A stretch of DNA of 64,000 nucleotides from Microthrixaceae bacterium (GTDB lineage Bacteria > Actinomycetota > Acidimicrobiia > Acidimicrobiales > Microtrichaceae): the NCBI GenBank assembly GCA_041394325.1, contig JAWKIJ010000001.1, positions 1,381,096-1,445,095 on the forward strand, written 5' to 3'. Of the stretch, positions 209-42,697 are shown piece after piece; the stretch's first letter is position 1, and every line of letters begins with the position of its first letter. The translations under genes were made by a program, and so were the position numbers. The notes beneath the pieces were generated by a model. It had not been told where the DNA came from and made no database searches. It saw only the letters and a program-made list of their open reading frames with translations.

Positions 209-224
209 CTAGAACATGTTCTCG
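209..224. promoter_or_regulatory. KstR-type operator palindrome, site 1 (CTAGAACATGTTCTCG)
   Basis: Perfect 12-bp palindrome AGAACATGTTCT (211-222) fits the mycobacterial KstR motif TnnAACnnGTTnnA. It lies between the FadD-like start (199) and the stop of the upstream gene (233). One of four near-identical sites in the window. Confidence 0.6.
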
Positions 225-232
225 TTGGCCGT

Positions 233-1983
233 TCAGGTGGCCGGGGCCTTCTTCGCGGCCGCCTTCCTCGCGGGGGCCTTCTTGGTGGGGGCCTTCGCGG
301 TCGCCTTCCTCGCGGGGGCCTTCTTGGTGGGGCCTTCGCGGTCGCCTTCTTCGCCGGGGTCGCAGCAGGCGATCGCGTCGGGCGACGTACGCGGCGGCGC
401 GGGCTTCGCTCGTTCCTCGAGCACCTCCTTCGCGGTGCTGCGACGGAGCATCGGCTTGGAGGACTCGTCGATCCGCTCGTGGTCTTTCGCGCCGGCGGCC
501 CCCTCGATCCCCGACCTTTCGATCCCCGGCTCGATGCGGACCGGCGTTGCGTCGACGTCGACGCCGAGCGATCCTCGGCGATCTCGCCGAGCCCCGCAGC
601 CACCAGCAACTCGTCGAAGGCCACCCGGACATGGTCGGCGAGGGACCAGACGTCGGGCACGAGATGCGGATCGACCATGAAGCCGAAGTCCACCGAGTCC
701 CGGTAGCTCAGCACCGTGACGTTGAGGCCGACACCCTCCATGATCGGACCCATCGGATACGCCGCGACGAGTTCGGCACCGGCCAGATACAGCGGGAAGG
801 GGGGTCCGGGCACGTTGGAGATGACGAGGTTGTGGATCGGCCGGTGGTGGTCGGCCAGGTTCATCCCCGAGTACAGCCGTGACGCGATGGCGAACGTCCG
901 CGGCGCCGCATACTCACCCCAGTCGGTGAGCATCCGTGCGCCGAGCGCGTTGTGCTCGACCTTGGCCCCCGCCGTCGACGCGGCGATGGTCCGCAACCGC
1001 TCGAGCGGGTCGTCCACGTCGGTGGCGAGCGACGTGAACATCGCCGACACCCGGTTGCCGAGCTGGCCGGACTCCTCGTCGGTGCGAACCGAGACCGGGC
1101 ACACCGAGATCAGCGAATCGTCGGGGAGCGCGTCCTGTGAGTCGAGGTAGCGCCGCAACGTGCCCGAGGTGATCGCAAGGATCACGTCGTTGACCTTTAC
1201 GTCGAGGGTCTTGGCCAGCCTCTTGACGTCGGCAAGCGGCAGCCGGGCGAACGACACCTTTCGGGCGCCGGAGATCGCGCCGTTCCACGGCGCCCGCGGG
1301 GCGGTGAGCGGCGTCGCACCGACCTTCCCCTCGGGGTTGCGGCGATTGTTGATCACCGTTGCGACGCTCTGCGCCGTACGCGCCACCAGGGGGACCATGT
1401 CCCGTCCGCGTCGGAGTTTGGACAACAGGGCGTAGCCGACGAGTTCGACGTCACTCGGGACGGCCTCGGCCTCGCTGGGCTCGATCGGAGGACGGGGCGG
1501 TGGTGACGGTTCGAGGTCGTACAACTCGGTCATGATCTCGGCCCCCGACGCACCGTCGATGGCCGAGTGATGGACCTTTGCCACGAAGCCGATCCGGTTC
1601 TGCTTCAGTCCCTCGATGACCCAGACCTCCCACAGCGGGCGTGTCCGGTCGAGGGGGATCGACGCGATCCGTGCCGCGACCTCGGCCAGTTCGCGTCGCC
1701 CGCCGGGGGCGGGGGCCGCGATGTGGCGGATGTGGTAGTCGGCTTCGAAGTGGGGGTCCTCGATCCACACCGGATGGTTGAGTTGGAAGGGCACCTCCGC
1801 GAGACGGCGGGTGAACGCCGGGATTCGATGGAACCGGCTCATGATGTGGTCTCGGAAGGCCTCGAACGAGTAGCCGTCCGGCATCGTCGAGGTGTCGTAG
1901 ATCCCGGTCATCGCGACGTGCATGTGTGCCGTCGGCGTCTCCAGGTACAGAAATGTGGCGTCCACGCCCGACAGTCGCTGCAT
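233..1983 (-). CDS. wax ester synthase/diacylglycerol acyltransferase (WS/DGAT); 3' end unresolved (frame change, Lys/Ala/Pro-rich tail)
   Basis: Minus frame from ATG 1983 (GAGGAGG just upstream) reads MQRLSGVDATFLYLETPTAHMHVAM...KVHHSAIDGASGAEIM (HHxxxDG motif)...NVPGPPFPLYLAGAELVAAYPMGPI. This frame stays open to the window edge, so it is missing from the track. A frame change near 560-600 and/or in the 41-bp repeat copy is needed to reach TGA 235-233. The core 600-1983 is secure; the 3' end is not. Confidence 0.8.
261..343. repeat. 42-bp/41-bp direct tandem repeat, 2 copies plus partial flanks
   Basis: 261-302 (gccttcctcgcgggggccttcttggtgggggccttcgcggtc) recurs at 303-343 with one G fewer (G5 versus G4 run). 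On the minus strand it encodes KKAPARKATAKAPT-type units. Confidence 0.85.
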
Positions 1984-2054
1984 GGTTCCTCCTCGCCACC
2001 ACCATCACGGCGGTTTCGTTGCGCACCGTACCCGCGGCGTCACAGGATGGTCCC

Positions 2055-3287
2055 ATGAAGTCGAACCTCATCTGGTCGCTCGTCCGGCTCGGGGTCGTGG
2101 GAAATGCACGAAAGCCGGCGATCCGGAACCGTGCGCTCACGATTCCGTCGTTCTTCGCCGGCTGGATCGCGACCGAGGGCGCCGTCCCGCTCGCCGTACT
2201 CCACGCCGCACGCTCCGTTCGCAACGCTCGCCGAGGTGCATACCGTGGCCGGGAGGGCCGGGTTGCCGCGGCCACCGACCTCGTGACCCTCGGCGGGCTC
2301 TCCAAGCTCGTGTTGGACGCACGACGGACCGACGACGAGTTCGTCGAGGCGCTCTCGCCGTACCTCGGTGCGGAGGAGCTGGCCGAACGGCCCCGTACCG
2401 TGCGCTACGGGGCTGCGTTGCCCGTCGTGACCGGCGGCCGGACCACCGTTCGGGAGCGTCGGATCGGCTACGTGCCCGACGCTCATTGGCGCAACATGTT
2501 GGACGTCTACCTGCCCAAGGCGTCACCTGCCCCGACCGGTGCAGACGGCACCCCGCTCCGCCGCCCGGCGATCGTGGAGATCCACGGTGGCGGTTGGGTC
2601 GTGGGCAACAAGGACCAGCAGGGCGTGCCGTTGTTGCACCACATGGTTCGGCAGGGTTGGGTCGGCTTCAACATCAACTACCGGCTTGCGCCCCGGTCGC
2701 GGTTTCCGACCCAGCTCGTCGATTGCAAGCGGGCCCTCGCCTACATACGGGCCAACGCCGACCGCTTCGGCATCGATCCGGATTTCGTCTGCGTCACCGG
2801 CGGCTCCGCGGGAGGCCACCTCTGCGCGCTCGTGGCACTCACCGCCAACGATCCCGAGTTCCAACCGGGCTTCGAGGACGCCGACACCACCGTCGCCGCG
2901 GCCGTGCCCTTCTACGGCGTGTACGACCTGGCCGACGAGGAGGGGGTGATGGTCGATGGTTTCGTCAAGTTCATCGAGCAGGTCGTCGTCGGGTCGAAGT
3001 TCGCGGGTGACGAGGAGCGGTGGCGCCGCTACTCACCGGTCAACCGGGTTCGGGCCGATGCGCCGCCGACGATGATCGTCCATGGGTCCGTCGACACGCT
3101 CGTACCCGTCGAGCAGGGCCGCACGTTCGCGAGGCGGATGGCCGAGACGTCCGAGCACGCGGTGGTCTACGCGGAACTGGCCGGCGCGAACCATGCCTTC
3201 GACATCTTCCCGTCCACCCGCTCGCTCCGTACCGTCGAGTACGTGGAGCGCTTCCTCACGGGGGTGCGCGAGGGTCGGATCAAGTGA
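2055..3287 (+). CDS. alpha/beta hydrolase, esterase/lipase (HSL-like)
   Basis: Track ORF 1926-3287. Start moved to ATG 2055 (MKSNLIWSL) to avoid overlap with the divergent WS/DGAT. Carries HGGGW oxyanion motif (EIHGGGWVVG), GGSAGG nucleophile elbow and a C-terminal HAFD. Confidence 0.8.
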   Translation: MKSNLIWSLVRLGVVGNARKPAIRNRALTIPSFFAGWIATEGAVPLAVLHAARSVRNARRGAYRGREGRVAAATDLVTLGGLSKLVLDARRTDDEFVEALSPYLGAEELAERPRTVRYGAALPVVTGGRTTVRERRIGYVPDAHWRNMLDVYLPKASPAPTGADGTPLRRPAIVEIHGGGWVVGNKDQQGVPLLHHMVRQGWVGFNINYRLAPRSRFPTQLVDCKRALAYIRANADRFGIDPDFVCVTGGSAGGHLCALVALTANDPEFQPGFEDADTTVAAAVPFYGVYDLADEEGVMVDGFVKFIEQVVVGSKFAGDEERWRRYSPVNRVRADAPPTMIVHGSVDTLVPVEQGRTFARRMAETSEHAVVYAELAGANHAFDIFPSTRSLRTVEYVERFLTGVREGRIK

Positions 3288-5266: not shown

Positions 5267-5401
5267 TCGATCCCGGTGTCGGGACAGCGGTCGGTCGGCC
5301 GGTTGGCCGTCGGGGCGCGGTCGGGCCCCTCGGCACAGCACTGCTCGGGTGACGGGTGATCGGGGGCTCGGGGGGCTGGTGATCGATGGCCGGTTGCGGG
5401 G

Positions 5402-6632: not shown

Positions 6633-6722
6633 GCGTTCATCATCCCACGGACCCCTGACAGTCGGAATCGATCGCACTGCTCGGAGCCTTGGTCGGTGGC
6701 CGCCGACGGCGGTCCGGCAGGG

Positions 6723-14044: not shown

Positions 14045-14088
14045 GCCGTTCGACGCCGCGCACCCCGGCCAACAACGATCGGACCCCG

Positions 14089-32214: not shown

Positions 32215-32221
32215 GCGCGCC

Positions 32222-33070
32222 GTGACCGTCGTCGTCTGCGCGAACTGGGTCGACCTGCACCCGAAGCTCGATCCCCTCACCGGGGAGGTTTCCACCGACC
32301 CTCGGCGGGGTGGCTTCTCCGATGCCGATCACGCCGCGCTCGCCGTCGCGCTCGATCTGGCCGCACCGACGGCCACCTCGGTGGTGGTGATGAGCGTTGC
32401 TCCCGAGGTGGCCGCCCCTTCGATCGCGGCGTTCGCCGCGCGAGGTGCGGATCGTGGAGTCCACCTGGTGGCGGACTCGCCGCTCGATCCGATCACCGCG
32501 GCGGGTGTCCTCGTCGAGGCGCTCACCGCGATGGACGACCTGACATGGGTGCTGTGCGGCGATCTGTCGCCGGACTGGGGCTCCGGCGCCGTCCCGCGCT
32601 GGTCGCGGCCGGTCTCGGCGCGGCGCAGGCGTTGGGCCTCGTCGAGGTTGCCAACGCCACGAGTGGGCGAGGCGCCGGCGCCGAGGTGGTCGTGGCGGTG
32701 CGGCGCCTGGACGGAGGTCGGCGGGAGCGGCTGGAGGTTCGGGCCCCTGCGGTGCTGTCGGTGGAGGGTTCGGTCGCCCGGCCCGGCCGTGCACCGTTGT
32801 CGGCATTGCGGGCGGCCACCGACCGCATCGAGTCGCGGGCCGTCCGGGTCGCCCGGCCAGCCGCGGGGCTGCACTGGGGATCGCCGCGGCCGATCCGGCC
32901 GCCGACGACCGGTCTCGAGCCGCCCGAAGGTGACGCGCGTTCGGCCGGATCGTGTCGCTGACGGGTGCGCTGGTCGAGCGCACCCCACCCCGTCGGGTCG
33001 ACGCGACCCCGAGGAGGCCGCCGAGCTCATCGTCGATCAGCTCGGCGTGTGGGGCTACGACCTCGGCTGA
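32222..33070 (+). pseudogene. etfB: electron transfer flavoprotein beta subunit (mycofactocin-associated type), 3 frame changes
   Basis: GTG 32222 opens VTVVVCANWVDLHPKLDPLTGEV...WVLCGDLSPDWGSGAVP (frame of ORF 31979). Next comes LVAAGLGAAQALGLVEV...APAVLSVEG (ORF 32545-32961). Then SLTGALVERTPPRRVDATP (ORF 32952-), then EEAAELIVDQLGVWGYDLG back in the first frame. Confidence 0.65.
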
Positions 33071-33786
33071 TGGCGGCGATCCGGCCCCTGCTCGCGTTGG
33101 GCGATCGCACCTGGACCGAGCTCGGCGAGCGGGCCTGGTTGATCGTGCCGCTGGGTTCGACCGAACAGCACGGGCCGCATCTCCCGTTGGACACCGACAC
33201 GCGCATCGCGGTGGCGATCGCCGAGCGCCTGGCGGCCAACTTGAGCGACAGTCCCGGGAGGTCGGCGGCGAGGGAGGTGCTGGTGGCCCCCGCGATGGCG
33301 ATCGGTGCGTCGGGTGAGCACGCCGGTTTCGCCGGCACGCTCTCGGTGGGGACCTCGGTGTTGGAGGAGGTCGTCGTGGAGATCGGCCGTTCCGCCGACC
33401 GTTTCGCCGGGGTCGTGTGGTGCAACGCGCACGGCGGCAACGCGGCCGCCTTGGAGCGGGCCCATCGCCGCCTCGTCGAGGAAGGCCGTCGGTCGCGGTG
33501 CGTGCACGTGGCGTTCGACGGCGATCTGCACGCCGGGCGTACCGAGACCTCGGTGATGCTGGCGATCGCACCGGAGACCGTCCGCGTCGACCGGATGCAA
33601 CCGGGTGTGACCGGGCCGTGGTCCGAGATCGGCGAGCGGATACGTCGCCGAGGCGTCGCCGCGGTCAGCCGAAACGGTGTCCTCGGCGACCCCACCGGTG
33701 CGTCGGCGGCCGAGGGTGAGCGCCTCATCGGGGACCTCGTCGCCCGCCTCGCCACCGATCTCGCGGCCGGGCCCGAGACCATCTGA
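33070..33786 (+). CDS. mftE: mycofactocin precursor peptidase MftE (creatininase family)
   Basis: Tail of ORF 32965-33786 from ATG 33070, which shares one nt with the etfB stop. Motifs LIVPLGSTEQHGPHLPLDTD, SGEHAGFAGT and NAHGGN. Confidence 0.85.
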   Translation: MAAIRPLLALGDRTWTELGERAWLIVPLGSTEQHGPHLPLDTDTRIAVAIAERLAANLSDSPGRSAAREVLVAPAMAIGASGEHAGFAGTLSVGTSVLEEVVVEIGRSADRFAGVVWCNAHGGNAAALERAHRRLVEEGRRSRCVHVAFDGDLHAGRTETSVMLAIAPETVRVDRMQPGVTGPWSEIGERIRRRGVAAVSRNGVLGDPTGASAAEGERLIGDLVARLATDLAAGPETI

Positions 33787-33891
33787 TCCGCGCCGCACGG
33801 CGGTATCACACGAACCGACACCCCGCAGGCCGATAGCGCTGGGAGGCGGATGGAACGACCCTGGTTCGCGTCGGCCACCTAGGGTTCGGCC

Positions 33892-34725
33892 ATGGCAACG
33901 TCGCAGCCCTCCGGCGCCATCACCGAGGACGTCGACGCGCCCGTCGCGCTGATCACCGGTGCCGCCCGCGGGATCGGGGCGGCGACCGCCGTGCGGCTCG
34001 CCGCCGACGGCTGGCGGGTGGCCGCGGCGGACATCTGCGCCGACATCGACGTGCTGCGCTACCACCTGGGAACCCGGGCCGATCTCGACGCCACCGTCGC
34101 CGCGTGTGCCGAGCGGGGGACCGAGGCGATCGGTCTGGTGGCCGACGTTCGCGACCAGTCGCAGGTCGACCATGCCGTCCTGGAAGCGGTGGCACGGTTC
34201 GGGCGGATCGACGCGGTGGTGGCCGCGGCGGGAGTGATCACCGGTGGTGACCCGGCCTGGGAGATCGACGAGGAGGTGTTCACGACCAACGTCGACGTCA
34301 ACCTCACCGGTGTCTGGCGCACCTTCAAGGCGGCCGTCCCCCACCTGCTCGCGACCCCCCGCCCGCGGCACGGTCGGCTGGTCGCCATCGCGTCTGCGGC
34401 GGGGATGCGGGGCAACCCGACCATCGCCGACTACACGGTCGCCAAACACGGTGTCGTCGGTCTGGTTCGTTCGCTTGCACTGGAACTGGGTCGCCGAGGG
34501 ATCACCGTCAACGCGGTGGCGCCGGGCTCGACCACCACGGCGATCCTGGACGCCACGGCGGAGTTGTACCACCTCGACGACGTCGGGGAGTTCGCCGTGC
34601 ACCACACCATCGGCCGCAATCTCGATCCGTCCGAGATCGCGGCCGGGGTCGCGTGGCTCGTCTCACCCGAGCGCGACGGTGTGACCGGGATCGTCCTACC
34701 CGTCGACGGGGGGATGACGATCTGA
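33892..34725 (+). CDS. mycofactocin-coupled SDR-family oxidoreductase (carveol dehydrogenase-like)
   Basis: ORF 33892-34725. TGAARGIGAA, YxxxK (YTVAKHG), and the insert ICADIDVLRYHLGTRADLDATV typical of the mycofactocin-linked SDR subfamily. Confidence 0.85.
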   Translation: MATSQPSGAITEDVDAPVALITGAARGIGAATAVRLAADGWRVAAADICADIDVLRYHLGTRADLDATVAACAERGTEAIGLVADVRDQSQVDHAVLEAVARFGRIDAVVAAAGVITGGDPAWEIDEEVFTTNVDVNLTGVWRTFKAAVPHLLATPRPRHGRLVAIASAAGMRGNPTIADYTVAKHGVVGLVRSLALELGRRGITVNAVAPGSTTTAILDATAELYHLDDVGEFAVHHTIGRNLDPSEIAAGVAWLVSPERDGVTGIVLPVDGGMTI

Positions 34726-34735
34726 TCGGCCGCCC

Positions 34736-36367
34736 GTGTCCGTCACCGGTTCGACGATGAGGTTGCGCTATCGCCTCGACCACGACGTCGTGGTGCTCGA
34801 CGACGGCGCGACCCTCCTGGGCGGCTTCCCGTGGCGGATCCTGCGGCTCGGTGCCGCGGGCACACGGATCGTCGAACAAGCCGCCTCGCGGGAGGGGCTG
34901 TCGCCCGGTCACGACGCCGGCGGGACCTCCGGAGACGGACGGCGAGACATGTCCGGGGCGCCGCGGTTCGTGCATCGACTGGTCGATGCGTCGGTCCTTC
35001 ATCCCGTACCCGAACCGGCCACCGGCAATGACGTCCGCGCCGTGGGAGGCTCCGAGGACTCCCGGCCCGAAGCGGCCGACGTGGTGGTGGTCGTGCCGGT
35101 GAAGGACCGGCCCGACGCGCTCGACCGCTGCCTCTCGGCCCTGGTGGCCTCGGGACTCGATCGCCTCGTAGTGGTCGACGACGGATCGATCGATTCCGAC
35201 TCGCATCGCCGGGTCGCCCAGCGTTACGGCGCCGACCTCGTCGCTCATGACCGTTCCCGCGGCCCGGCCGCCGCCCGAAACACGGGTGCCCGTCACGGCG
35301 TGCGCGTCGCGCACCTCCGCCCCGACGAGCCTCCACCACGGTTGTCGCCACCCACGGCGATCGCGTTCGTGGACTCCGACGTCGAGGTCCCGTCCGGGTG
35401 GATCGAACCGTTGTCGGCCCACCTCGGGGACCCCGGTGTGGGGTTCGTCGCGCCGAGGCTCGTGCATCTCCGGACCAGCACCGGCGCACCGCCCCCGAGC
35501 GCGACCCGCGTCGCTTCTCGACGGCCCAGGGGTGACTCCCGGCTCGACCGCTACGAGGCGGCCGCGTCCCCGCTCGACCTCGGCCGACGCCGCAGCCCGA
35601 TCGGTCGCGGTCATCGTGTCACCTACGTTCCCGCGGCGGCCCTGCTGGTGCGGACCGAGGCGTTCGAGGAGGTCGGTGGCTTCGACGAGTCGATGTCCAC
35701 CGGGGAGGACGTCGACCTGGTCTGGCGGTTGCGCGACGCGCGGTGGCGGGGACGCTACGAGCCCGACTCATGGGCAGGCCACCGCGGCGACCGCGCGTGG
35801 CCCGCCCTTCTGGGTCGCCGCTACGCGTACGGTCGGGCCGCGGCCGTTCTGGATCGCGCGCACCCCGGGTCGGTCGCACCGGTGGTGCTCGGCCCGCGTG
35901 GAGCGCTGATCGCCGGTGCCACGCTGTGGGCCGGGCCGCCGGCCGCGCTGGCCGGCTGGGCTCTCGATGCGGCCGCGTTGTGGCGACGGCTGAACACGCC
36001 ATCGACCGGACCGGTGAGGCGGACGGTGACGCCGGGTCGCGTGGCGGGCATCGTCGCGCGCGGCCACCTCCAGGCGCTGGGCCAGGTCGCCAGGGCGATG
36101 GTGCGCCCGTACCTTCCGGTCACGCTTGCCGCGTGCCTCATCTCGCGTCGCGTCAGGCGGATCGTCCTCGTGTCGACCTTGGTCGAACGGCTCGCGCGCC
36201 GGCCGACCGGAGCGGAGAGGGTCGAGCCGCTCACCTGGCTGTGCGCCTCACTCGCCGACGACATCGCCTACAGCGCAGGTGTTTGGGCGGGTTGTATAGC
36301 GGAATGCAGCCCCGGTGCGCTGTTGCCCGCGACTCCCCGAGGAACCGCCGGGTCAGGACAAAACTAG
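34736..36367 (+). CDS. mftF: mycofactocin system glycosyltransferase MftF
   Basis: ORF 34736-36367. RYRLDHDVVVLDDGATLLGGFPWRILRL, GT2 core VVVVPVKDRPDALDRCL...VVDDGS...AAARNTG, and a C-terminal membrane region. Confidence 0.85.
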   Translation: MSVTGSTMRLRYRLDHDVVVLDDGATLLGGFPWRILRLGAAGTRIVEQAASREGLSPGHDAGGTSGDGRRDMSGAPRFVHRLVDASVLHPVPEPATGNDVRAVGGSEDSRPEAADVVVVVPVKDRPDALDRCLSALVASGLDRLVVVDDGSIDSDSHRRVAQRYGADLVAHDRSRGPAAARNTGARHGVRVAHLRPDEPPPRLSPPTAIAFVDSDVEVPSGWIEPLSAHLGDPGVGFVAPRLVHLRTSTGAPPPSATRVASRRPRGDSRLDRYEAAASPLDLGRRRSPIGRGHRVTYVPAAALLVRTEAFEEVGGFDESMSTGEDVDLVWRLRDARWRGRYEPDSWAGHRGDRAWPALLGRRYAYGRAAAVLDRAHPGSVAPVVLGPRGALIAGATLWAGPPAALAGWALDAAALWRRLNTPSTGPVRRTVTPGRVAGIVARGHLQALGQVARAMVRPYLPVTLAACLISRRVRRIVLVSTLVERLARRPTGAERVEPLTWLCASLADDIAYSAGVWAGCIAECSPGALLPATPRGTAGSGQN

Positions 36368-36379
36368 AATCTGTTCTAT
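36364..36379. promoter_or_regulatory. KstR-type operator palindrome, site 2 (CTAGAATCTGTTCTAT)
   Basis: Overlaps the mftF TAG stop (36365-36367) and lies 72 nt upstream of the DUF35 gene start. The left arm and AAA flank are shared with the other three sites. Confidence 0.55.
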
Positions 36380-36450
36380 ATTCGCTCTGCCCTCTCCGAA
36401 CCGTCGGACGGAACGGGCACCACCCATCGACGCGACGGCAAGGGGATCAC

Positions 36451-36936
36451 GTGGCCACTGCGCCTCCACCGGGAGGGGATCTGCTGCAGGCGGACCTCAT
36501 CATCGAGTACCCGTTCAACCGCACCACGGGGCCGGTCATCGGCGCCTTCTTCACCGGCCTGATCAACCGCCGGATCCTCGGCATCCGTGGTGTGGACGGC
36601 CGGGTGATCTGCCCACCGGTCGAATACGACCCCGTCACGGGTGAATCGCTCACCGAACTGGTACCCGTGGCCGACGCCGGTGTCGTCGAGTCGTGGACGT
36701 GGGTGTCGACCCCGAGGCCCACCGAACCGTTCGACGGACCCTACGCGTTGGCACTGATCCGCCTCGACGGGGCCGACACCGCGATGTTGCACGGCGTCGT
36801 CGCCCCCGCTCCCGACTCGGTGCGCACCGGTTCACGGGTGAGGGCCCGTTGGGCCGACGAACGCACCGGTGCGATCACCGACATCGTCGCATTCGATCTC
36901 GTCGAGGCGCCGACCTCCGGAGGTGCAACCCGATGA
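36451..36936 (+). CDS. DUF35 OB-fold protein (thiolase/aldolase partner)
   Basis: Tail of ORF 35743-36936 from GTG 36451 (AAGGGGA upstream). Reads GPVIGAFFTGL...GRVICPPVEYDPVTGE...YALALIRLDGADT. Confidence 0.75.
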   Translation: MATAPPPGGDLLQADLIIEYPFNRTTGPVIGAFFTGLINRRILGIRGVDGRVICPPVEYDPVTGESLTELVPVADAGVVESWTWVSTPRPTEPFDGPYALALIRLDGADTAMLHGVVAPAPDSVRTGSRVRARWADERTGAITDIVAFDLVEAPTSGGATR

Positions 36937-37511
36937 GTGACGATCGAACCATCACCCCTCTGCCCACCGGGTTGTGGAGTCAACCCACCGTCGACACCTC
37001 CGCGGTCGCCGACGCCCTCGACGGGACCGAGACGGTCCAGCGGGTCCGGCAGCCCGCGTCGATCCGCTACGACTTCGTTCCCGGCGTGGCGACCACGAGG
37101 TTCCTCAAGGGCCTCGCCAACAAGCAGATCTTCGGTGAGCGGGATCCCCTCACCGGCGACGTGTACGTCCCGCCCCGGGGTGTATGCCCGGTCTCGGCCC
37201 AACCCACCACCGAACAGGTCGAGCTCTCCCACAAGGGGTCGGTCTCCTCGTTCTGCGTGGTGCACATCGGCTTCGGCACCAACGCACCGCCGACTCCGTT
37301 CTGCTCTGCGCTGATCCTGTTGGACGGTGCGGTCATCTCCCTGTACGGACCGATCCAGGAGATCCCCTACGACCAGGTGCGCATCGGCATGCGGGTGGAG
37401 GCCGTGTGGGCCGACGACGCCGACCTGTCGCCCAGCTTCGAGTCGATCAAATGGTGGCGGCCCATCGACGAACCCGACGTCGCGGCCGAGACCCTGAAAG
37501 GACACATGTGA
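36933..37511 (+). CDS. second DUF35 OB-fold protein
   Basis: Tail of ORF 36693-37511 from ATG 36933 (ATGA overlap). Reads GERDPLTGDVYVPPRGVCP...SFCVVHIGF...MRVEAVW. Confidence 0.75.
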   Translation: MSDDRTITPLPTGLWSQPTVDTSAVADALDGTETVQRVRQPASIRYDFVPGVATTRFLKGLANKQIFGERDPLTGDVYVPPRGVCPVSAQPTTEQVELSHKGSVSSFCVVHIGFGTNAPPTPFCSALILLDGAVISLYGPIQEIPYDQVRIGMRVEAVWADDADLSPSFESIKWWRPIDEPDVAAETLKGHM

Positions 37512-38587
37512 TGGCGGGTGGTTCCGCAGGATCGCGCGACGTCGCGATCGTCAGCGTCGCGCAGAGCACCCACGAGCGGGCGAAGGTCGCGACCAACGAG
37601 GTCGAGCTCATCCAGCCGGTCATCCAGCAGGCACTCGAGCAGATCGGAGCCACGATCGCCGACATCGGCTTCGTGTGCTCGGGCAGCACCGACTACCTCG
37701 CCGGGCAGGCCTTCTCCTTCGTGATGACCCTCGACGCGGTGGGCGCGTGGCCTCCGATCGCCGAGTCCCACGTGGAGATGGACGGCGCGTGGGCGCTGTA
37801 CGAGGCGTGGGTGAAGATCCAGGCCGGCCACGCCGACACGGCGCTGGTGTTCAGCTACGGCAAGAGCTCGCCGGGCGATCTCCCCAACGTCTTGAGCCGC
37901 CAGCTCGACCCGTACTACTACCAGCCGCTGTGGCCGTCCTCGGTGGGCCTGGCCGGTATCCAGGCGAGGGCGATGATCGACGGTGGTGCGATCACCGAGC
38001 GCCGGATGGCCGAGATCGCGTACGCCTCGCGTACCGCTGCGGCGAACAATCCGTTCGCACAGCTCCGCTCCTCGGCAGCGGTCGACGACCTGCTGGCCGA
38101 GCCCTATCTCTCCGATCCGTTGCGGCGCCACGACTGCGCTCCCATCAGCGACGGCGGGGTCGCGGTGGTGTTGGCAACCGGCGACGCCGCGGCGCGTTGG
38201 GCCGATCGTCCGGCGTGGATACGGGGGATCGACCATCGCGTCGACGGCCACAACTTCGGAGCCCGTGACCTCACCGTCGCGCCCTCGGCCGCACTCGCCG
38301 GGCAACGCGCCGGGGTGGGTGACGACAAGGTGGACGTGGCCGAGTTGCACGCTCCGTTCACCCACCAGCACCAGATGCTGGTCGACGCGTTCGGTCTCGG
38401 CGACGGTACCGACGTCAACCCCTCGGGCGGGGCGCTCGCCGCCAATCCGATGATGGCCGCCGGGTTGTTGCGGCTCGGCGAGGTGGCCGGTCGCATCATG
38501 TCCGGTGCGGCCGACCGCGGGGTCGCGCATGCGACCAGCGGACACCTGTTGCAGCAGAACCTCGTTGCCGTCCTGGAAGGAGCCTGA
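37511..38587 (+). CDS. thiolase-like (Ltp/SCP-x type) protein
   Basis: Tail of ORF 37184-38587 from ATG 37511 (TGATG overlap). Reads VAIVSVAQS...DCAPISDGGVAVVL...NPSGGALAANPMMAAG. Confidence 0.8.
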   Translation: MAGGSAGSRDVAIVSVAQSTHERAKVATNEVELIQPVIQQALEQIGATIADIGFVCSGSTDYLAGQAFSFVMTLDAVGAWPPIAESHVEMDGAWALYEAWVKIQAGHADTALVFSYGKSSPGDLPNVLSRQLDPYYYQPLWPSSVGLAGIQARAMIDGGAITERRMAEIAYASRTAAANNPFAQLRSSAAVDDLLAEPYLSDPLRRHDCAPISDGGVAVVLATGDAAARWADRPAWIRGIDHRVDGHNFGARDLTVAPSAALAGQRAGVGDDKVDVAELHAPFTHQHQMLVDAFGLGDGTDVNPSGGALAANPMMAAGLLRLGEVAGRIMSGAADRGVAHATSGHLLQQNLVAVLEGA

Positions 38588-38588
38588 A

Positions 38589-39761
38589 ATGGCCGGACAG
38601 CTCGCCGGCGTCGTCGGCATCGGACAGACCCGCCACGCCGCCATCCGCGGCGACGTCTCGGTCGCGGGCCTCATCCGTGAGGCGGTCTTCCGTGCGTTGG
38701 ACGACGCGCACATGACCATGGCCGACATCGACGCCGTCGTGATCGGCAAGGCCCCCGACTTCTTCGAGGGCATGATGATGCCCGAGACCTACCTCGCCGA
38801 TGCCATCGGCGCGGTGGGAAAGCCGTTGCTGCGAGTGCACACCGCCGGGTCGGTGGGCGGATCCACGGCCATCGTGGCGACCAGTCACGTCGAGGCCGGG
38901 GTGGCCGAGCGGGTGCTCACCATCGCCTGGGAACAGCAGTCCTGTTCAGAGGCGATGTGGGCGCTGTCGTTCCCCATCCCGTTCCAACAGCAGCTCGTGG
39001 CAGGTGCGGGCGGCTATTTCGCTCCGTTCATCCGCGAGTACATGCGCCGGAGCGGTGCGCCCGAGGACATCGGGATCCTGGTCGCGTTGAAGGACCGGCT
39101 CAACGCATTGAAGAACCCCTACGCACATCTCCACGAACCCGACATCACCTACGACTCGGTGAAGGAGTCGTTCATGCTGTGGGAGCCCATCCGCTACTCC
39201 GAGACGTGCCCGTCGAGCGACGGTGCGATCGCGATGGTGATCGCCGGCGAGCAGGCGGCGGAGGCGTCGGCCGCGGCCTCGGGCAATCGTCCGGCCTGGA
39301 TCCGTGGAACGTCCATGCGGTCCGAGCCGGCCATGGCCAACGGTCGCGATCAGGTGTCACCACAGGCGGGCAAGGACTGCGCGGCCGACGTGTACCGCCA
39401 GGCGGGGATCACCGATCCCCGGGGACAGATCGACGTCGTCGAGATGTACGTGCCGTTCAGCTGGTACGAGCCGATGTGGTTGGAGAACCTCGGCTTCGCA
39501 CCCGAGGGCGAGGGCTGGAGGCTCACCGAGCAGGGTGTCACCCAGATGGACGGCGACCTGCCCGTGAACTGTTCGGGCGGGGTGTTGTCGACCAACCCGA
39601 TCGGGGCGTCGGGAATGTTGCGTTTCGGCGAGGCCGCCATGCAGGTCCGCGGAACCGCGGGTGACCATCAGATCGACGGTGCCCGCACCGCGCTCGGCCA
39701 GGCCTACGGCGGTGCGGCACAGTTCTTCGCGACCTGGGTCGTCAGCGCCGACAAGCCCTGA
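38589..39761 (+). CDS. thiolase-like (Ltp/SCP-x type) protein
   Basis: Tail of ORF 38505-39761 from ATG 38589. Reads VVGIGQTRH...ETCPSSDGAIAMVI...NCSGGVLSTNPIGASG. Confidence 0.8.
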   Translation: MAGQLAGVVGIGQTRHAAIRGDVSVAGLIREAVFRALDDAHMTMADIDAVVIGKAPDFFEGMMMPETYLADAIGAVGKPLLRVHTAGSVGGSTAIVATSHVEAGVAERVLTIAWEQQSCSEAMWALSFPIPFQQQLVAGAGGYFAPFIREYMRRSGAPEDIGILVALKDRLNALKNPYAHLHEPDITYDSVKESFMLWEPIRYSETCPSSDGAIAMVIAGEQAAEASAAASGNRPAWIRGTSMRSEPAMANGRDQVSPQAGKDCAADVYRQAGITDPRGQIDVVEMYVPFSWYEPMWLENLGFAPEGEGWRLTEQGVTQMDGDLPVNCSGGVLSTNPIGASGMLRFGEAAMQVRGTAGDHQIDGARTALGQAYGGAAQFFATWVVSADKP

Positions 39762-39793
39762 GGACCAGGCGTAACAAGCCCGCGGGTCGCCGA

Positions 39794-40829
39794 TCAGGCG
39801 ATCGGCTTGGAGCCGTACGTCTGGCTCGCGGAAGGAGCCAACTCCTCGACCTCGCTCAGCTCGTCAGGCGGGTACAGGTCGGTGGTCACCTCGACCCCCT
39901 CGGCGTAGAACTGTGAGGCCCAGCGCCGGAACTTGGTGAACGGACCGTCGGTGTCGGCCAGTGCGGGTCGGGGAGGAACGCCTTGTTCTCCCAGATCGGA
40001 CGATCCTCACGGACCTGTCGGTCGATCTCGGCCACGAAGGCGTCGCCGACCGTGGAGTTGATCGAGTCGTCACCCAGTTTGCGGACGCTGAAGCTGAACC
40101 GCATCTCGCAGTGCTGGTCGTCGATGGGTGTGTTGCAGCCCATGAGCACCGTGTCGACGATGCCGCCGAAGTGGATCACCGAGAAGCCGGGGCCGTACGA
40201 GTCGGCGAAGATGTGCCCGTCCACCACACCGCGCGGCGTCGGGAACTTCTGGATCGAGCGCATCCGGGCGATGGGGCCGTCGGTGTCGTAGCCGGTGAGC
40301 TCGGGCACCTCCTCGGTGTTGTGCACGTAGCGGAAATGTGCGGAGTCGACCCCGTTCTCGGCCAGTTCCTGCCACGGCGCCTTCACGTCGTAGCGACGGG
40401 TCACCATCGGGGTGAACTGCTCGTCGCCGTTGAACTCGGGGACCTCGGGGACCTCCCACTGCGGCGGTCCGTCGGTGGGGTGGTACCAGGCCATCATCAG
40501 GCCGTTGCGCTCGATCAGCGGATAGGTGCGCAGGCGCCCCTTGGCGTTGGTGCGCTTGGAGTAGGGAATGAGGGTGTTGGTGCCCTCGCAGTCGAAGCGC
40601 CAGCCGTGGAAGGGCGCGCAGCTCACAACCAACCACTTTGCCGCCCACGCCGAGGTGTGCGCCCATGTGGGGGCAGAACGTCCTGGAGGTGAGCGGTGCC
40701 CTCCTCGTCGCGCCACAGGACCAGGTGGCGTCCGAAGTACTGGAGGGGCTTGGACTCGCCGACCGCGACGTCGCCCGGCCAGCCGATCTGGAACCAGCCG
40801 AACGGTACGGGAAACGGTGACCTTGCCAT
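39794..40829 (-). pseudogene. KshA-like Rieske non-heme-iron oxygenase, at least 3 frame changes
   Basis: Four pieces in different frames. MARSPFPVPFGWFQIGW...EEGTAHLQD (ORF 40623-40829). CPHMGAHLGVGGKVVG (ORF 40070-40666). FHGWRFDCEGTN...GVDSAHFRYVHN...DRPIWENKAFL (ORF 39886-40851). PRPALADTDGPFTKFRRWASQFYAEG... runs to TGA 39796-39794. Confidence 0.75.
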
Positions 40830-40852
40830 TGGATTCCTCCGAGGACGACAAA

Positions 40853-40868
40853 CTAGAACGTGTTCTCG
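40853..40868. promoter_or_regulatory. KstR-type operator palindrome, site 3 (CTAGAACGTGTTCTCG)
   Basis: Lies 24 nt upstream of the Rieske oxygenase ATG (40829), just beyond its GGAGG SD. Confidence 0.6.
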
Positions 40869-40940
40869 TTCAGCCTAGGCGCTGGCCTCCGACCATGTGG
40901 TTGGGTCGGGCGGCGGCGAGCCCGACAGGTGCCGGACCAC

Positions 40941-40968
40941 GACCCGGCGCACCGTGAGGCGCCGGGTC
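40941..40968 (-). terminator. stem-loop at the end of the aldose-epimerase gene
   Basis: gacccggcgc (40941-40950) pairs with gcgccgggtc (40959-40968), giving a 10-bp stem and an 8-nt loop. It overlaps the stop codon. Confidence 0.5.
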
Positions 40969-41769
40969 AGTCCTCCCGCCGCCAGGCGAGCGTCATCGAC
41001 CCGACGAGTGGCTCACCCGGAAGCACCACACGGGGTGAACGGTTCGGTTCGTCGGGGGCACCACTCTCGGGCTCGACGCACAGGGCGTGCTCGGGCTCGG
41101 TGAACACGACCCAATGGTCGAAAGTGGACGACAGGCTCAGCGTCAACACGCCCGGCCAACGGATGGTGGGATCGTGGTCGAGGCCGACGAAGCAGGCGTC
41201 CCACGGCCCGGGCGGCACTGGTTCCGTCTCGCCGGTGGGGATGGCGTCCTCGTCGACGGCGTACACGGAGCCCCCGGAGACGGTGAGCTCGGCCGGTCCA
41301 CCGCGGCCCAACTCACGACGGAACCACGGGTGCCAGCCCGCCATCGCCGGCATCGGACGCTCACCCGCGTGGACCTCGACGGTGACCTTCAGGCGGTTGC
41401 TGCTCAACTCGAAGCGTTGTACGACGTGGCCTCCGAACGGCCACGCCGCGCCCGGTGAACCCGCCCCACCCAACCCGGTCCTGATCGTCGCCGCCGTGGC
41501 ATCGGCATCGACCACGGTCCAGGGTTGAAGGTGAGCGAAACCGTGATTCGCGTGGGGAGGGCTCGTCAGCGGAAAGTCATAGGTCGCGCCGTCGAAGTCG
41601 AGCCGGCCCCCACGCAGCCGACCACACCACGGGACCATCGGGAACGAACCCCAACGGGCCGGTCTCGATCCTTCGGTGACGAGCAACTCGATCCCGTCCG
41701 CGGCGAGGAGGAGAGCCGACCGCCGAACAGATCGACGGTGGCGGTATCGTCGCCCGAGTTCAGTCGCAT
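40967..41769 (-). pseudogene. aldose 1-epimerase family protein, one frame break near 41705
   Basis: ORF 41566-41796 from M10 reads MRLNSGDDTATVDLFGGRLSS. The sequence continues as LAADGIELLVTEGSRPARWGSFPMVPWCGRL... in ORF 40967-41686. Confidence 0.7.
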
Positions 41770-41803
41770 CGCAACGGCCGGGAGGATCGGCGGCACCCCA
41801 TCC

Positions 41804-42670
41804 TCAGAGGCGCAACAGGCGCACCGCGTTGTGCCGGAGGAACTTGGGCCACACGTCGTCGTGGAAGCCGACGTCGGGCAACTCGCCGAAGATCCGGTCC
41901 AGTGACAGGCCCATCGGGAAGTAGCCGGCGTACATCACCTTGTCCGCCCCGCGGGTGTTGGCGTAGCGGACGATCGACTCGGGGTAGTAGCGCGGCGAGA
42001 ACGCGGACGTCGAGTAGTAGAGGTTGGGCCACTTGATCATCAGCTTCACGGCGAGGTCGGTCCACGGTTCGGCCCCGTGGCGCATCACGAACTTCAACTC
42101 CGGGAAGAACCAGCACACCTCGTCGACCGCCTCGACGTGCTGGCAGCGCATGGGAACCCGCGGACCCGGAACCCCCACGCAACAGAACACGGGGATGTCG
42201 AGCTCGCACGCCTTGGCGTAGATCGGGTACATCCGCTTGTCGTCGATGGGCACCTGGGGGGAGTATCCGGCGGGAAACAGGGTTATCGCCTTCAGGTCGA
42301 GCGAGTCGTGGGCCTCGACGATCTTGTGGATCGCCTTCATGCCCTCGTTGGGGTCGACCGACAGCGCCGCCATGAAGCGGTCCGGGTGCCGGAGCGCCGC
42401 GTCGTACTGGATGCCGCCGCCCAGCTTCACCCCGATGAGCGAACGCTCGATCCCGAAGGTGTCCATCTGCTCGATGGTGTAGGCGACCATGTCGTCGGTG
42501 TCGGGGTCCTCCGGTACCTCTTTGAACATGTACTCCGCCGGGAACTTGAACGTCGCGCTCTCGGGGTCGCGGAGGTTGGGCTTCAGGAAGTCGTACCACG
42601 ACTCCTTCTTCCCGGGATCGGGGATCCCCATCATGAGGTCGATGACACCGATGTCGCGAGGCATGCCCAT
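41804..42670 (-). CDS. amidohydrolase-2 (ACMSD-like) family protein
   Basis: ORF 41804-42742; start at ATG 42670 (MGMPRDIGVIDLMMGIP). Reads ...FPAGY...VPMRCQHV...FVMRHGAEPW. Confidence 0.8.
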   Translation of the reverse strand: MGMPRDIGVIDLMMGIPDPGKKESWYDFLKPNLRDPESATFKFPAEYMFKEVPEDPDTDDMVAYTIEQMDTFGIERSLIGVKLGGGIQYDAALRHPDRFMAALSVDPNEGMKAIHKIVEAHDSLDLKAITLFPAGYSPQVPIDDKRMYPIYAKACELDIPVFCCVGVPGPRVPMRCQHVEAVDEVCWFFPELKFVMRHGAEPWTDLAVKLMIKWPNLYYSTSAFSPRYYPESIVRYANTRGADKVMYAGYFPMGLSLDRIFGELPDVGFHDDVWPKFLRHNAVRLLRL

Positions 42671-42681
42671 GGGCGACCAAA

Positions 42682-42697
42682 CTAGAACACGTTCCAC
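42682..42697. promoter_or_regulatory. KstR-type operator palindrome, site 4 (CTAGAACACGTTCCAC)
   Basis: Sits in the 121-bp divergent region between the amidohydrolase (start 42670) and the ferredoxin (start 42792). The core TAGAACACGTTC matches the published KstR consensus half-sites. Confidence 0.6.

What the first reader, a model, noticed from the sequence alone, without database searches (positions are those of the whole stretch)
209..42697. Four copies of a KstR-type palindrome define a steroid/lipid-catabolic regulon that abuts the mft locus
SEEN: 16-mers CTAGAACATGTTCTCG (209-224), CTAGAATCTGTTCTAT (36364-36379), CTAGAACGTGTTCTCG (40853-40868) and CTAGAACACGTTCCAC (42682-42697). Each is preceded by an A-rich flank (aaat, aaaa, caaa, caaa). 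All four are in promoter-proximal non-coding DNA: upstream of the FadD-like gene, the DUF35/thiolase operon, the KshA-like oxygenase, and the divergent amidohydrolase/ferredoxin pair. Site 2 overlaps the mftF stop codon. ESTABLISHED: the KstR operator of mycobacteria and rhodococci is TnnAACnnGTTnnA (TAGAACACGTTCTA-like). It controls cholesterol uptake and catabolism genes, including kshA, ltp, fadD and fadE genes. As I recall, transposon screens in M. tuberculosis flagged mft genes as needed for growth on cholesterol. INFERENCE: a KstR-like TetR repressor (not in the window) coordinates these four units. The physical fusion of this regulon with the mft/ETF operon suggests that mycofactocin-dependent redox chemistry serves sterol or lipid degradation in this organism.
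Basis: partly seen in the sequence, partly recalled or inferred. Interest (0 to 1): 0.65.

Follow-up and report, generated by a model that had tools for sequence, protein, structure and literature searches.

The report
KstR-type operators in an Acidimicrobiia genome
Four short palindromes in front of lipid/sterol side-chain breakdown genes are real binding sites of the well-known KstR repressor type, here in a Microthrix-like bacterium rather than a mycobacterium; their position next to the mycofactocin genes looks like a lineage-specific gene order, not evidence of a shared function.

Summary
All four 16-mers are at the stated coordinates. A weight matrix built only from the 16 published M. 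tuberculosis KstR operators gives exactly four hits in the 64-kb window. These are the four sites, at 23.9, 16.8, 26.9 and 24.6 bits. The real operators score 22.9-32.9, and 0.05 hits of 15 bits or more are expected by chance. All four are intergenic and overlap -10-like hexamers.

The window is not from Mycobacterium or Rhodococcus. Its closest relatives are Microthrixaceae/Acidimicrobiales MAGs. In 80 related loci (1.2 Mb) the same motif sits at a fixed position upstream of orthologues of three units: the amidohydrolase (41/86), the KshA-like oxygenase (12/50) and the DUF35-Ltp4-Ltp3 operon (11/15). Of 81 hits, 74 are intergenic.

Seven of these loci encode a TetR whose best solved homologue is M. 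tuberculosis KstR, and it lies in operons headed by the motif. The conserved gene set mirrors M. tuberculosis Rv3515c-Rv3526.

No kstR is in the window, and the rest of the genome could not be reached. The KshA-like gene carries three indels, and no ring-cleavage genes were seen.

The mft link is weak. No site precedes the mft/ETF operon, and adjacency holds only in the nearest relatives. The "mft needed on cholesterol" screen result was later attributed to the ethanol solvent.

Verdict: a new member of a known kind.

The parts
208..225 (.). KstR-type operator 1 (TCTAGAACATGTTCTCGT), 23.9 bits. Its minus-strand end forms a -10-like TAGATT (206-211), 6 nt before the FadD ATG.
2..199 (-). N-terminus (66 aa) of an AMP-binding acyl-CoA ligase that runs off the window. 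It is the target of operator 1. It is 53% identical to the FadD that follows kstR and a KstR site in L080.
36363..36380 (.). KstR-type operator 2 (ACTAGAATCTGTTCTATA), the weakest at 16.8 bits. It overlaps the mftF stop codon.
   Evidence: The same AAT variant occurs upstream of DUF35a in L003 and L004.
36355..36382 (+). Sigma-70-like promoter AGGACA-16 nt-TATATT that encloses operator 2 and reads towards the DUF35 operon.
   Evidence: the only promoter-like hit in 36000-43000
36451..39761 (+). Operon DUF35a (36451-36936), DUF35b (36933-37511), Ltp4-type thiolase-like protein (37508-38587, NF005924/PRK07937, 515 bits vs cut-off 419) and Ltp3-type (38565-39761, NF006180/PRK08313, 664 vs 514).
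40852..40869 (.). KstR-type operator 3 (ACTAGAACGTGTTCTCGT), 26.9 bits. A minus-strand -10-like TAGTTT (40850-40855) is followed by a GGAGGA ribosome-binding site and the ATG.
39797..40829 (-). KshA-like Rieske oxygenase gene, interrupted by three indels relative to its orthologues (frames -3/-1/-2/-1).
42681..42698 (.). KstR-type operator 4 (ACTAGAACACGTTCCACC), 24.6 bits. A minus-strand -10-like TAGTTT (42679-42684) lies 8 nt before the ATG, so the transcript is probably leaderless.
41804..42670 (-). Amidohydro_2 family gene, the target of operator 4. In relatives this is the unit that most often carries the motif (41 of 86 orthologues).
42792..45038 (+). Divergent ferredoxin (42792-42986), ferredoxin reductase (43027-44349) and YhhN (44346-45038). 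Their membership of the regulon is uncertain: only 2 of 11 ferredoxin orthologues have a site nearby.
34736..36367 (+). mftF (TIGR03965, 332 bits vs cut-off 280), the last gene of the mft/ETF block. It is a neighbour, not a demonstrated member of the regulon.

Best explanation
The four palindromes are operators for a KstR-family TetR repressor encoded elsewhere in this roughly 3-Mb Acidimicrobiia genome.

Each operator overlaps the -10 element of a promoter. Reading towards the target gene, the end of the operator plus its flank spells GTTCTAGTTT, GTTCTAGATT or GTTCTATATT, which contains a TAnnnT hexamer. A bound repressor dimer would therefore block RNA polymerase.

For the FadD and amidohydrolase genes the ATG follows 6-8 nt after that hexamer, so these transcripts are probably leaderless.

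The controlled units are:
- an acyl-CoA ligase;
- a DUF35-DUF35-Ltp4-Ltp3 operon, whose mycobacterial and rhodococcal counterparts are aldol-lyase-type enzymes of C24-branched sterol side-chain breakdown;
- a KshA-like Rieske oxygenase, disrupted in this sequence;
- an amidohydrolase.

By analogy with M. tuberculosis KstR, repression is probably relieved when an acyl-CoA thioester intermediate of the substrate binds the repressor. The substrate is most likely a sterol or a sterol-like branched lipid side chain.

What is shown: sequence, position, enrichment, cross-genome conservation, and the presence of the repressor family in relatives.

What is inferred: actual binding, the inducer, the substrate, and the presence of kstR in this particular genome.
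For: (1) A PWM built from the M. tuberculosis operators alone recovers exactly these four sites and nothing else of 8 bits or more. Three of them fall within the range of the real operators.

(2) Phylogenetic footprint. In 1.2 Mb of related loci there are 81 hits of 14 bits or more, and 74 are intergenic although only about 24% of the DNA is non-coding (binomial p about 5e-38). The motif lies upstream of 41/86 amidohydrolase, 12/50 KshA-like and 11/15 DUF35a orthologues, at a nearly fixed distance (median 10 nt for the amidohydrolase and DUF35a, 25 nt for KshA-like). A TAnnnT hexamer follows in 32 of 40 aligned amidohydrolase promoters.

(3) A TetR is present in 7 loci: L054, L055 (a Microthrixaceae MAG), L027, L056, L042, L063 and L080.
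- Its best solved homologue is M. tuberculosis KstR over its full length (E = 6.7e-26). The next family, Mce3R, scores 3e-9.
- Its domains are TetR_N plus TetR_C_20.
- Identity to M. tuberculosis KstR is 30/52 in the DNA-binding region.
- It lies downstream of an acyl-CoA dehydrogenase in operons headed by the motif (L042, L027), or has a site of its own (L080).

(4) The conserved cluster parallels the M. tuberculosis operators at Rv3520c/Rv3521, Rv3515c/Rv3516 and Rv3525c/kshA (Kendall 2007). It contains:
- an Rv3520c-family F420 oxidoreductase (TIGR03559, 473 vs cut-off 335);
- DUF35, Ltp4-type and Ltp3-type genes;
- an EchA19-like hydratase;
- a P450, a FadD and a KshA-like gene.

(5) Kendall 2007 describes the KstR operator as overlapping the -10 region. 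The only promoter-like hit in 36-43 kb encloses site 2.
Against: - No kstR is in the window. The rest of the genome could not be reached.
- The nearest relatives (L001-L007) show no kstR within 10 kb.
- The Acidimicrobiia TetR is only 33% identical overall to M. tuberculosis KstR. That is the level Kendall 2007 judged only a 'possible' orthologue in Streptomyces.
- Site 2 scores below every M. tuberculosis operator.
- About half of the amidohydrolase orthologues lack the motif, mainly Ilumatobacteraceae and Acidimicrobiaceae.
- No ring-opening or ring-cleavage genes (KstD, HsaA-D) were seen in the window or in the neighbours that were annotated.
- The FadD proteins do not reach the steroid-CoA ligase cut-offs.
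- The KshA-like protein is shorter than true KshA (346 vs about 390 aa) and is frameshifted here.
Confidence: 0.8

Rival explanations
1. The operators and the KstR-family repressor are as described, but the regulon serves a non-steroid lipid, and 'steroid' is a mislabel. Candidates are branched, isoprenoid or long-chain fatty acids taken up by these lipid-storing Microthrix-like bacteria.
For: No KstD/Hsa ring-degradation genes were found in the window or in annotated neighbours. The FadD proteins resemble FadD4 or long-chain ligases and fall below the steroid-ligase cut-offs. A WS/DGAT lipid-storage gene lies immediately upstream of site 1. The M. tuberculosis KstR regulon also responds to palmitate and was first described as a lipid regulon (Kendall 2007; PMC6678751).
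Against: The conserved set (Rv3520c-family LLM, DUF35, Ltp4/Ltp3 types, EchA19-like, P450, KshA-like) matches the sterol side-chain part of the M. tuberculosis cholesterol cluster. Ltp3/Ltp4 are tied to C24-branched sterol side chains (Wilbrink 2012 as cited in PMC7807495).
Confidence: 0.3
2. One reading: the KstR regulon and the mycofactocin/ETF system are functionally coupled, with mycofactocin-dependent redox enzymes feeding sterol or lipid degradation. On this view their physical junction at site 2 reflects co-regulation or read-through.
For: mftF and the DUF35 operon are co-directional and 83 nt apart, with no terminator-like site on the + strand. The same junction (mftF-site-DUF35a) recurs in L003 and L007, and mftF is near the operon in L005. 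The mft block here carries FadH/OYE reductases, an acyl-CoA ligase and an mft-type ETF. In M. tuberculosis the mft-coupled SDR Rv0687 has a predicted KstR motif (Kendall Table 3, EMSA not done; PMC5264612). In more distant relatives the KstR-controlled operon starts with a Zn-ADH related to the mycofactocin-associated TIGR03989 family, although below its cut-off (322 vs 440).
Against: No KstR-type site of 8 bits or more lies in or upstream of the mft/ETF genes. Adjacency holds in only 3 of the 15 loci with the DUF35 operon; elsewhere the neighbour is FadD or ADH. The cholesterol phenotype of mft mutants was traced to ethanol (PMC6529628).
Confidence: 0.15
3. The palindromes bind a different TetR paralogue that is unrelated in function to KstR, and the resemblance to the KstR operator is convergent.
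For: Overall identity of the candidate regulator to M. tuberculosis KstR is only 33%. No regulator gene lies in the window.
Against: The DNA-binding region is 58% identical, with a near-identical recognition stretch. The operator matches including the flanking AC/GT positions. Target genes and autoregulation also match.
Confidence: 0.05
4. The matches are chance, or the palindromes act as RNA hairpins or terminators with no operator function.
For: The terminator scan flags a weak 5-bp stem at site 3 on the minus strand.
Against: 0.05 random hits per 64 kb are expected against four observed. The sites hold conserved positions upstream of start codons in dozens of genomes. The arms are 6 nt with a 2-nt spacer, which cannot make a stable hairpin.
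Confidence: 0.01

Closest known systems
KstR (Rv3574/MSMEG_6042) regulon of Mycobacterium tuberculosis and M. smegmatis (Kendall et al. 2007, PMC1995591)
   Same: - The operator matches: ACTAGAAC-NN-GTTCTAGT, core TnnAACnnGTTnnA.
- Sites are intergenic and overlap the -10 region.
- Related loci encode a TetR that is homologous over its full length to the solved KstR structures (5cw8, 3mnl).
- The targets include DUF35/ltp4/ltp3-type, Rv3520c-type, kshA-type, fadD, echA19-type and P450 genes.
- The regulator gene is itself under a KstR site.
   Different: - The host is in the class Acidimicrobiia, not the Mycobacteriales.
- The regulator is only about 33% identical overall.
- In relatives kstR lies downstream of an acyl-CoA dehydrogenase on the same strand, rather than divergent from fadE34.
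- An Amidohydro_2 gene, not listed for M. tuberculosis, is the unit that most often carries the motif in relatives.
- No mce4 or ring-degradation genes were seen.
- No binding or expression data exist.
Predicted KstR regulon of Nocardioides simplex VKM Ac-2033D (PMC7807495)
   Same: It is a KstR regulon inferred outside the mycolic-acid bacteria. Its predicted sites precede fadD19, echA19, ltp3, ltp4 and cyp125, and those genes are induced by phytosterol.
   Different: Nocardioides is in the class Actinomycetes and has complete steroid clusters (kstD, kshA/B, hsa) with transcriptome support. Here only side-chain-type genes are in view and there are no expression data.
M. tuberculosis Rv0687 (mycofactocin-coupled SDR, TIGR03971), which has a predicted KstR motif and lies near the mft locus
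   Same: A KstR-type site lies physically close to mycofactocin genes.
   Different: In M. tuberculosis the site precedes an mft-dependent dehydrogenase (EMSA not done). Here the site follows mftF and precedes a DUF35/Ltp operon, and the mft-coupled SDR (33892-34725) has no site.

Membership tests
KstR operator / KstR regulon | The operator sequence conforms to the KstR motif (TnnAACnnGTTnnA; ACTAGAACnnGTTCTAGT) at the strength of experimentally supported operators. | tested here: met
   The PWM from 16 M. tuberculosis operators scores sites 1, 3 and 4 at 23.9, 26.9 and 24.6 bits, inside the 22.9-32.9 range. Site 2 scores 16.8 bits, which is below the range but far above chance. Only site 4 fits the strict consensus string.
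KstR operator / KstR regulon | Sites lie in intergenic promoter DNA and overlap the -10 region, and are not spread through coding DNA. | tested here: met
   In the window, 4 of 4 hits are intergenic and there are no coding hits of 8 bits or more. In relatives, 74 of 81 hits are intergenic. TAnnnT hexamers overlap the operator ends. A promoter-like site encloses site 2. The promoters themselves are predicted, not mapped.
KstR operator / KstR regulon | A KstR-family TetR repressor is encoded in the same genome. | tested here: inconclusive
   None is in the 64-kb window. The source contig (about 3.04 Mb) is not retrievable. A KstR homologue is present in 7 related Acidimicrobiia loci.
KstR operator / KstR regulon | The regulator gene is itself preceded by the operator (autoregulation). 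| tested here: met
   This was tested in relatives only. In L042 a site at 20171 heads ECH-ACAD-kstR. In L027 a site at 20527 heads ACAD-kstR. In L080 an 18.5-bit site lies directly upstream of kstR.
KstR operator / KstR regulon | Target genes are homologous to known KstR-controlled genes. | tested here: met
   - The Ltp4-type and Ltp3-type proteins are above their NCBIfam cut-offs.
- The best solved homologues of the KshA-like protein are KshA enzymes (E 1e-34 to 1e-39).
- In relatives there is an Rv3520c-family LLM above cut-off and an EchA19-like hydratase.
- Assigning PRK07937 to Ltp4 and PRK08313 to Ltp3 rests on my memory of the M. tuberculosis annotations.
KstR operator / KstR regulon | The repressor binds the sites and is released by a cholesterol-derived acyl-CoA thioester. 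| not testable with these tools
   This needs EMSA or footprinting and ligand assays. The M. tuberculosis data are summarised in PMC6678751.
Aerobic 9,10-seco steroid catabolic pathway | Presence of the core ring enzymes (KstD, KshA/KshB, HsaA-D). | tested here: inconclusive
   Only one KshA-like gene was found (346 aa in orthologues, frameshifted here), together with a ferredoxin and reductase pair rather than KshB. No KstD or Hsa families appeared among the proteins scanned against Pfam and NCBIfam (about 70 from the window and about 20 from neighbouring loci). The rest of the genome was not seen.
Mycofactocin system | [quoted passage not shown] | tested here: met
   MftA, MftB, MftC, MftE, MftF, an mft-coupled SDR, an mft ETF-alpha and both mft FadH/OYE proteins are all above their NCBIfam cut-offs. 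mftD was not found in the window.
Mycofactocin system | Co-regulation of mft genes with the KstR regulon. | tested here: not met
   No PWM hit of 8 bits or more lies upstream of, or within, 13.8-36.3 kb other than site 2 at the 3' end of mftF. Adjacency holds in only 3 of 15 loci.

The most novel reading that the evidence does not exclude
Microthrixaceae-like Acidimicrobiia are abundant in activated sludge and waters and are absent from the two main surveys of steroid degraders (no mention in PMC4810484 or PMC5790920). On this reading they carry an ancient KstR-controlled module for sterol (phytosterol-type, C24-branched) side-chain breakdown. In one subclade that module is physically joined to a mycofactocin/ETF/FadH redox block that supplies or drains its electrons. 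This would extend KstR-regulated steroid metabolism to a second actinobacterial class and give mycofactocin a lipid-linked role.
Probability: 0.25. Interest if true: 0.6.

Novelty: new member of a known kind. Interest (0 to 1): 0.4.

Why it matters
KstR is the master switch of cholesterol use in M. tuberculosis. So far it has been documented only in the class Actinomycetes (Mycobacteriales, and a predicted regulon in Nocardioides).

This window shows the same operator, promoter architecture and core gene set in Acidimicrobiia. That implies the regulon is much older and more widespread than its pathogen-centred description suggests. It also points to Microthrix-like wastewater bacteria as possible degraders of sterol or branched-lipid side chains.

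The finding gives a ready-made, testable regulon: four promoters here and dozens in relatives. It also corrects an attractive but weakly founded link to mycofactocin.

Tried and rejected
- My first PWM was mis-centred by one base before symmetrisation. It gave doubled hits and inflated random rates, so it was discarded and replaced.
- I tried to reach the rest of the source genome by exact-protein look-up. The amidohydrolase with two alternative starts, and P0001, were all 'not on record'. Presence of kstR in this genome therefore stays untested.
- The KstR2-type motif AnCAAGnnCTTGnT gave one 1-mismatch hit inside coding DNA, which is chance level.
- A homologue search with the Ltp4-type protein returned only unnamed or generically named Acidimicrobiia/Microthrixaceae proteins. 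No named mycobacterial Ltp4 was among the top 120. This helped the taxonomy but not the orthology.
- The inverted-repeat finder at a minimum length of 10 does not report the 6-nt arms.
- A regex and tblastn search for any TetR in the window found nothing.
- The 198-aa ORF at 48591-49187, which I suspected to be a TetR, has no Pfam match.
- Literature searches for KstR with Acidimicrobiia, or for steroids with Microthrixaceae, found nothing relevant.

Full report
**1. Observation**

The four 16-mers are present exactly as reported, with the stated A-rich 5' flanks. TAGAACNNGTTC with up to 1 mismatch gives nine matches: the four palindromes on both strands, plus one half-match inside a coding region at 9020. 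Shuffles give 0.86 on average, and none of 100 reaches nine. Only site 4 fits the strict string TnnAACnnGTTnnA.

As an independent test I took the 16 M. tuberculosis KstR operators from Table 3 of Kendall et al. 2007 (PMC1995591). From these I built a symmetrised 18-bp weight matrix and scanned the window. It returns exactly four hits of 8 bits or more:

| Hit position | Score (bits) |
|---|---|
| 208 | 23.9 |
| 36363 | 16.8 |
| 40852 | 26.9 |
| 42681 | 24.6 |

The M. tuberculosis operators themselves score 22.9-32.9 bits. Random 64-kb sequences give 0.05 hits of 15 bits or more. An earlier, mis-centred matrix was discarded. Site 2 (AAT in place of AAC) is clearly the weakest.

**2. Gene context**

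The window has 69% G+C. Codon-based gene calls with Pfam and NCBIfam annotation give the following.

- **Site 1.** It lies in the 33-bp gap between the stop of a Lys/Ala-rich ORF (233-451, minus strand) and the ATG (197-199) of an AMP-binding acyl-CoA ligase that runs off the window. That ORF is probably the tail of a WS/DGAT gene at about 547-1983.
- **Site 2.** It begins within the TAG stop of mftF and lies 72 nt before DUF35a. Downstream come DUF35b, an Ltp4-type protein (NF005924, 515 bits vs cut-off 419) and an Ltp3-type protein (NF006180, 664 vs 514).
- **Site 3.** It lies 24 nt before the ATG of a KshA-like Rieske oxygenase (KshA_C domain). The intact orthologue's best solved homologues are the KshA enzymes 4qdc and 2zyl, with E between 1e-39 and 1e-34.
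- **Site 4.** It lies 12 nt before the ATG of an Amidohydro_2 gene and 95 nt before a divergent ferredoxin / ferredoxin-reductase / YhhN unit.

The mycofactocin genes are real:

- mftA-mftB-mftC and two mft FadH/OYE reductases lie at 13.9-19.5 kb.
- About 8 kb of unrelated genes follows.
- An acyl-CoA ligase, mft ETF-alpha, FixC, FixX, an ETF-like ORF, mftE, an mft-coupled SDR and mftF lie at 28.0-36.4 kb.

mftD was not found in the window.

**3. Organism**

The amidohydrolase finds its best relatives (79-82% identity) in Microthrixaceae and other Actinomycetota MAGs. The remaining 80 loci come mostly from Acidimicrobiia (lineage). The closest named homologues of the Ltp4-type protein are also Microthrixaceae or Acidimicrobiales. 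That table also indicates that the window's protein sits on a contig of 3,044,961 bp. The window is therefore not from Mycobacterium or Rhodococcus.

**4. Conservation**

In the 80 loci (1.2 Mb) the M. tuberculosis-derived matrix finds 81 hits of 14 bits or more. Of these, 74 are intergenic, although only about 24% of the DNA is non-coding by my crude gene calls (p about 5e-38). Several of the 7 'coding' hits are evident start-codon miscalls.

A site lies within 200 nt upstream of three families of orthologues (raw lists):

| Orthologue family | With a site | Median distance |
|---|---|---|
| Amidohydrolase | 41 of 86 | 10 nt |
| KshA-like oxygenase | 12 of 50 | 25 nt |
| DUF35a | 11 of 15 | 10 nt |

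The aligned amidohydrolase promoters read ACTAGAACnnGTTCTAGTnT, then 6-8 nt, then ATG. A TAnnnT hexamer starts at the last TA of the palindrome in 32 of 40 of them.

The window follows the same pattern:

- TAGATT lies 6 nt before the FadD ATG.
- TAGTTT lies 8 nt before the amidohydrolase ATG.
- TAGTTT is followed by a GGAGGA site before the KshA-like ATG.
- For the plus-strand DUF35 operon, TATATT follows the operator with AGGACA 16 nt upstream. This is the only promoter-like hit in 36-43 kb.

It is the complement of the -10 element for the three minus-strand targets. Kendall 2007 likewise reports that the KstR operator partly overlaps the -10 region.

**5. The regulator**

No TetR gene is in the window (regex scan; tblastn).

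Seven related loci encode a conserved TetR of about 195 aa. They are L054, L055 (a Microthrixaceae MAG), L027, L056, L042, L063 and L080.

- Its best solved homologues are M. tuberculosis KstR (5cw8, 3mnl, 5aqc, 5ua2; E = 6.7e-26, aligned over residues 5-191). A Rhodococcus TetR (3bjb) follows. The next family, Mce3R, scores only 3e-9.
- It has TetR_N plus TetR_C_20 domains.
- Identity to M. tuberculosis KstR is 33% overall and 30/52 in the DNA-binding region.
- In L042 it is the last gene of an EchA19-like / acyl-CoA dehydrogenase / kstR operon headed by a 28-bit site that is shared with a divergent P450.
- In L027 a 26-bit site heads ACAD-kstR.
- In L080 an 18.5-bit site lies directly upstream of kstR, and a 27-bit site separates kstR from a FadD. 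That FadD is 53% identical to the window's FadD N-terminus.

**6. The regulon**

The recurrent Acidimicrobiia arrangement has three parts:

- An Rv3520c-family F420 oxidoreductase (TIGR03559, 473 vs cut-off 335), then a site, then the amidohydrolase and the KshA-like gene.
- SDR, Ltp3-type, Ltp4-type, DUF35b and DUF35a (sometimes with a Zn-ADH), read leftward from a site that also faces a FadD.
- kstR, ACAD and an EchA19-like hydratase, read leftward from a site that also faces a P450.

This mirrors the M. tuberculosis operators at Rv3520c/Rv3521, Rv3515c(fadD19)/Rv3516(echA19) and Rv3525c/Rv3526(kshA). It also matches the regulon members ltp3 and ltp4. Ltp3 and Ltp4 are linked to C24-branched sterol side-chain degradation (Wilbrink 2012 as cited in PMC7807495).

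Annotating 20 further neighbour genes showed CoA-transferases, aldolases and thiolase-like proteins. It showed no KstD or Hsa ring enzymes. No KstR2-type motif is present. 'Sterol side chain' is therefore the best-fitting substrate class, but it is not shown.

**7. The mycofactocin link**

No KstR-type site precedes or lies within the mft/ETF genes.

The order mftF-site-DUF35a recurs in L003 and L007, and mftF lies near the operon in L005. These are among the closest relatives (72-79% amidohydrolase identity). In the other 12 loci with the DUF35 operon the neighbour is a FadD or an ADH. The junction is therefore a stable, subclade-specific arrangement.

However, Krishnamoorthy et al. 2019 showed that the requirement for mft genes on cholesterol depended on the ethanol solvent (PMC6529628).

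Some weak points remain in favour of a link:

- M. tuberculosis Rv0687, an mft-coupled SDR (PMC5264612), has a predicted KstR motif. EMSA was not done.
- The mft block here is rich in acyl-CoA-type redox genes.
- No terminator-like site separates mftF from the DUF35 operon.

I rate functional coupling at about 0.15.

**8. Quality caveat**

Relative to L001, the KshA-like gene has two 2-nt deletions in the Rieske-motif region and one 1-nt deletion near the 3' end. This gives four frame segments. L003, a nanopore contig, also has an indel there. Neighbouring genes are intact. The gene may be a true pseudogene, or these may be local assembly errors. The operator upstream is intact either way.

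**9. Verdict**

These are genuine KstR-type operators, with a confidence of about 0.8. They define part of a conserved KstR-like regulon in Acidimicrobiia. This is a new member of a known kind of system and is moderately interesting (0.4). I found no description of KstR in Acidimicrobiia, and no mention of this class in the two main surveys of steroid degraders. The proposed mycofactocin coupling is not supported by the present evidence.

Noticed in passing
window 39797-40829 (-): The KshA-like Rieske oxygenase gene is broken by three indels relative to L001: two 2-nt deletions near the Rieske Cys/His motifs and one 1-nt deletion near the 3' end. L003 also has an indel here. It is either a pseudogene or a long-read assembly error.
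   Followed up: partly
window about 547-1983 (-) and 233-451 (-); tandem repeat 251-359: A WS/DGAT (wax ester synthase / diacylglycerol acyltransferase) gene lies just upstream of site 1. Its reading frame has no stop. A Lys/Ala-rich tail in another frame ends at 233 and is built on a 42-bp tandem repeat (2.6 copies, 94% matches). This suggests a frameshift or a repeat-length error.
   Followed up: partly
window 13868-19518 and 27977-36367: The mycofactocin locus is split into two blocks about 8 kb apart, mftABC plus two FadH/OYE reductases, and acyl-CoA ligase/ETF-alpha/FixC/FixX/mftE/SDR/mftF. No mftD and no MftR-type TetR were found in the window.
   Followed up: partly
L008-L016, L018-L026 (Ilumatobacteraceae and Acidimicrobiaceae MAGs): These loci keep the amidohydrolase / KshA-like gene pair but have no KstR-type site within 2 mismatches upstream. 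The regulon, or its operator, has apparently been lost or replaced in these lineages.
   Followed up: no
L069 9925, L072 2276, L073 4250, L078 848: MAGs labelled Rickettsiales, delta proteobacterium/Deltaproteobacteria (L072, L078) or Dadabacteria carry TGAAAC..GTTTCA-type or TAGAAC..GTTTCA-type KstR-like palindromes upstream of amidohydrolase orthologues. This reflects a wider distribution of the regulon, horizontal transfer or mis-binned contigs.
   Followed up: no
L054 16707-17789 (-), L056 16875-17954 (-), L063 16098-17183 (-): In more distant relatives a Zn-dependent alcohol dehydrogenase lies directly upstream of DUF35a on the same strand, so the KstR-controlled DUF35-Ltp operon appears to start with it. 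In L054 and L056 the KstR site precedes this gene, whereas in L063 the site lies between it and DUF35a. Its best NCBIfam match is the mycofactocin-associated TIGR03989 family, below the cut-off (322 vs 440 bits).
   Followed up: no
window 25197-27699 (-): Lon protease appears as two overlapping ORFs in different frames (25197-26591 with the AAA and Lon_C domains; 26128-27699). This suggests another frameshift in the sequence.
   Followed up: no
window 37508-38587 (protein P0001): The protein database lists the window's own Ltp4-type protein as coming from a contig of 3,044,961 bp, so the source is a near-complete long contig. The look-up by exact protein is nevertheless blocked or empty.
   Followed up: yes
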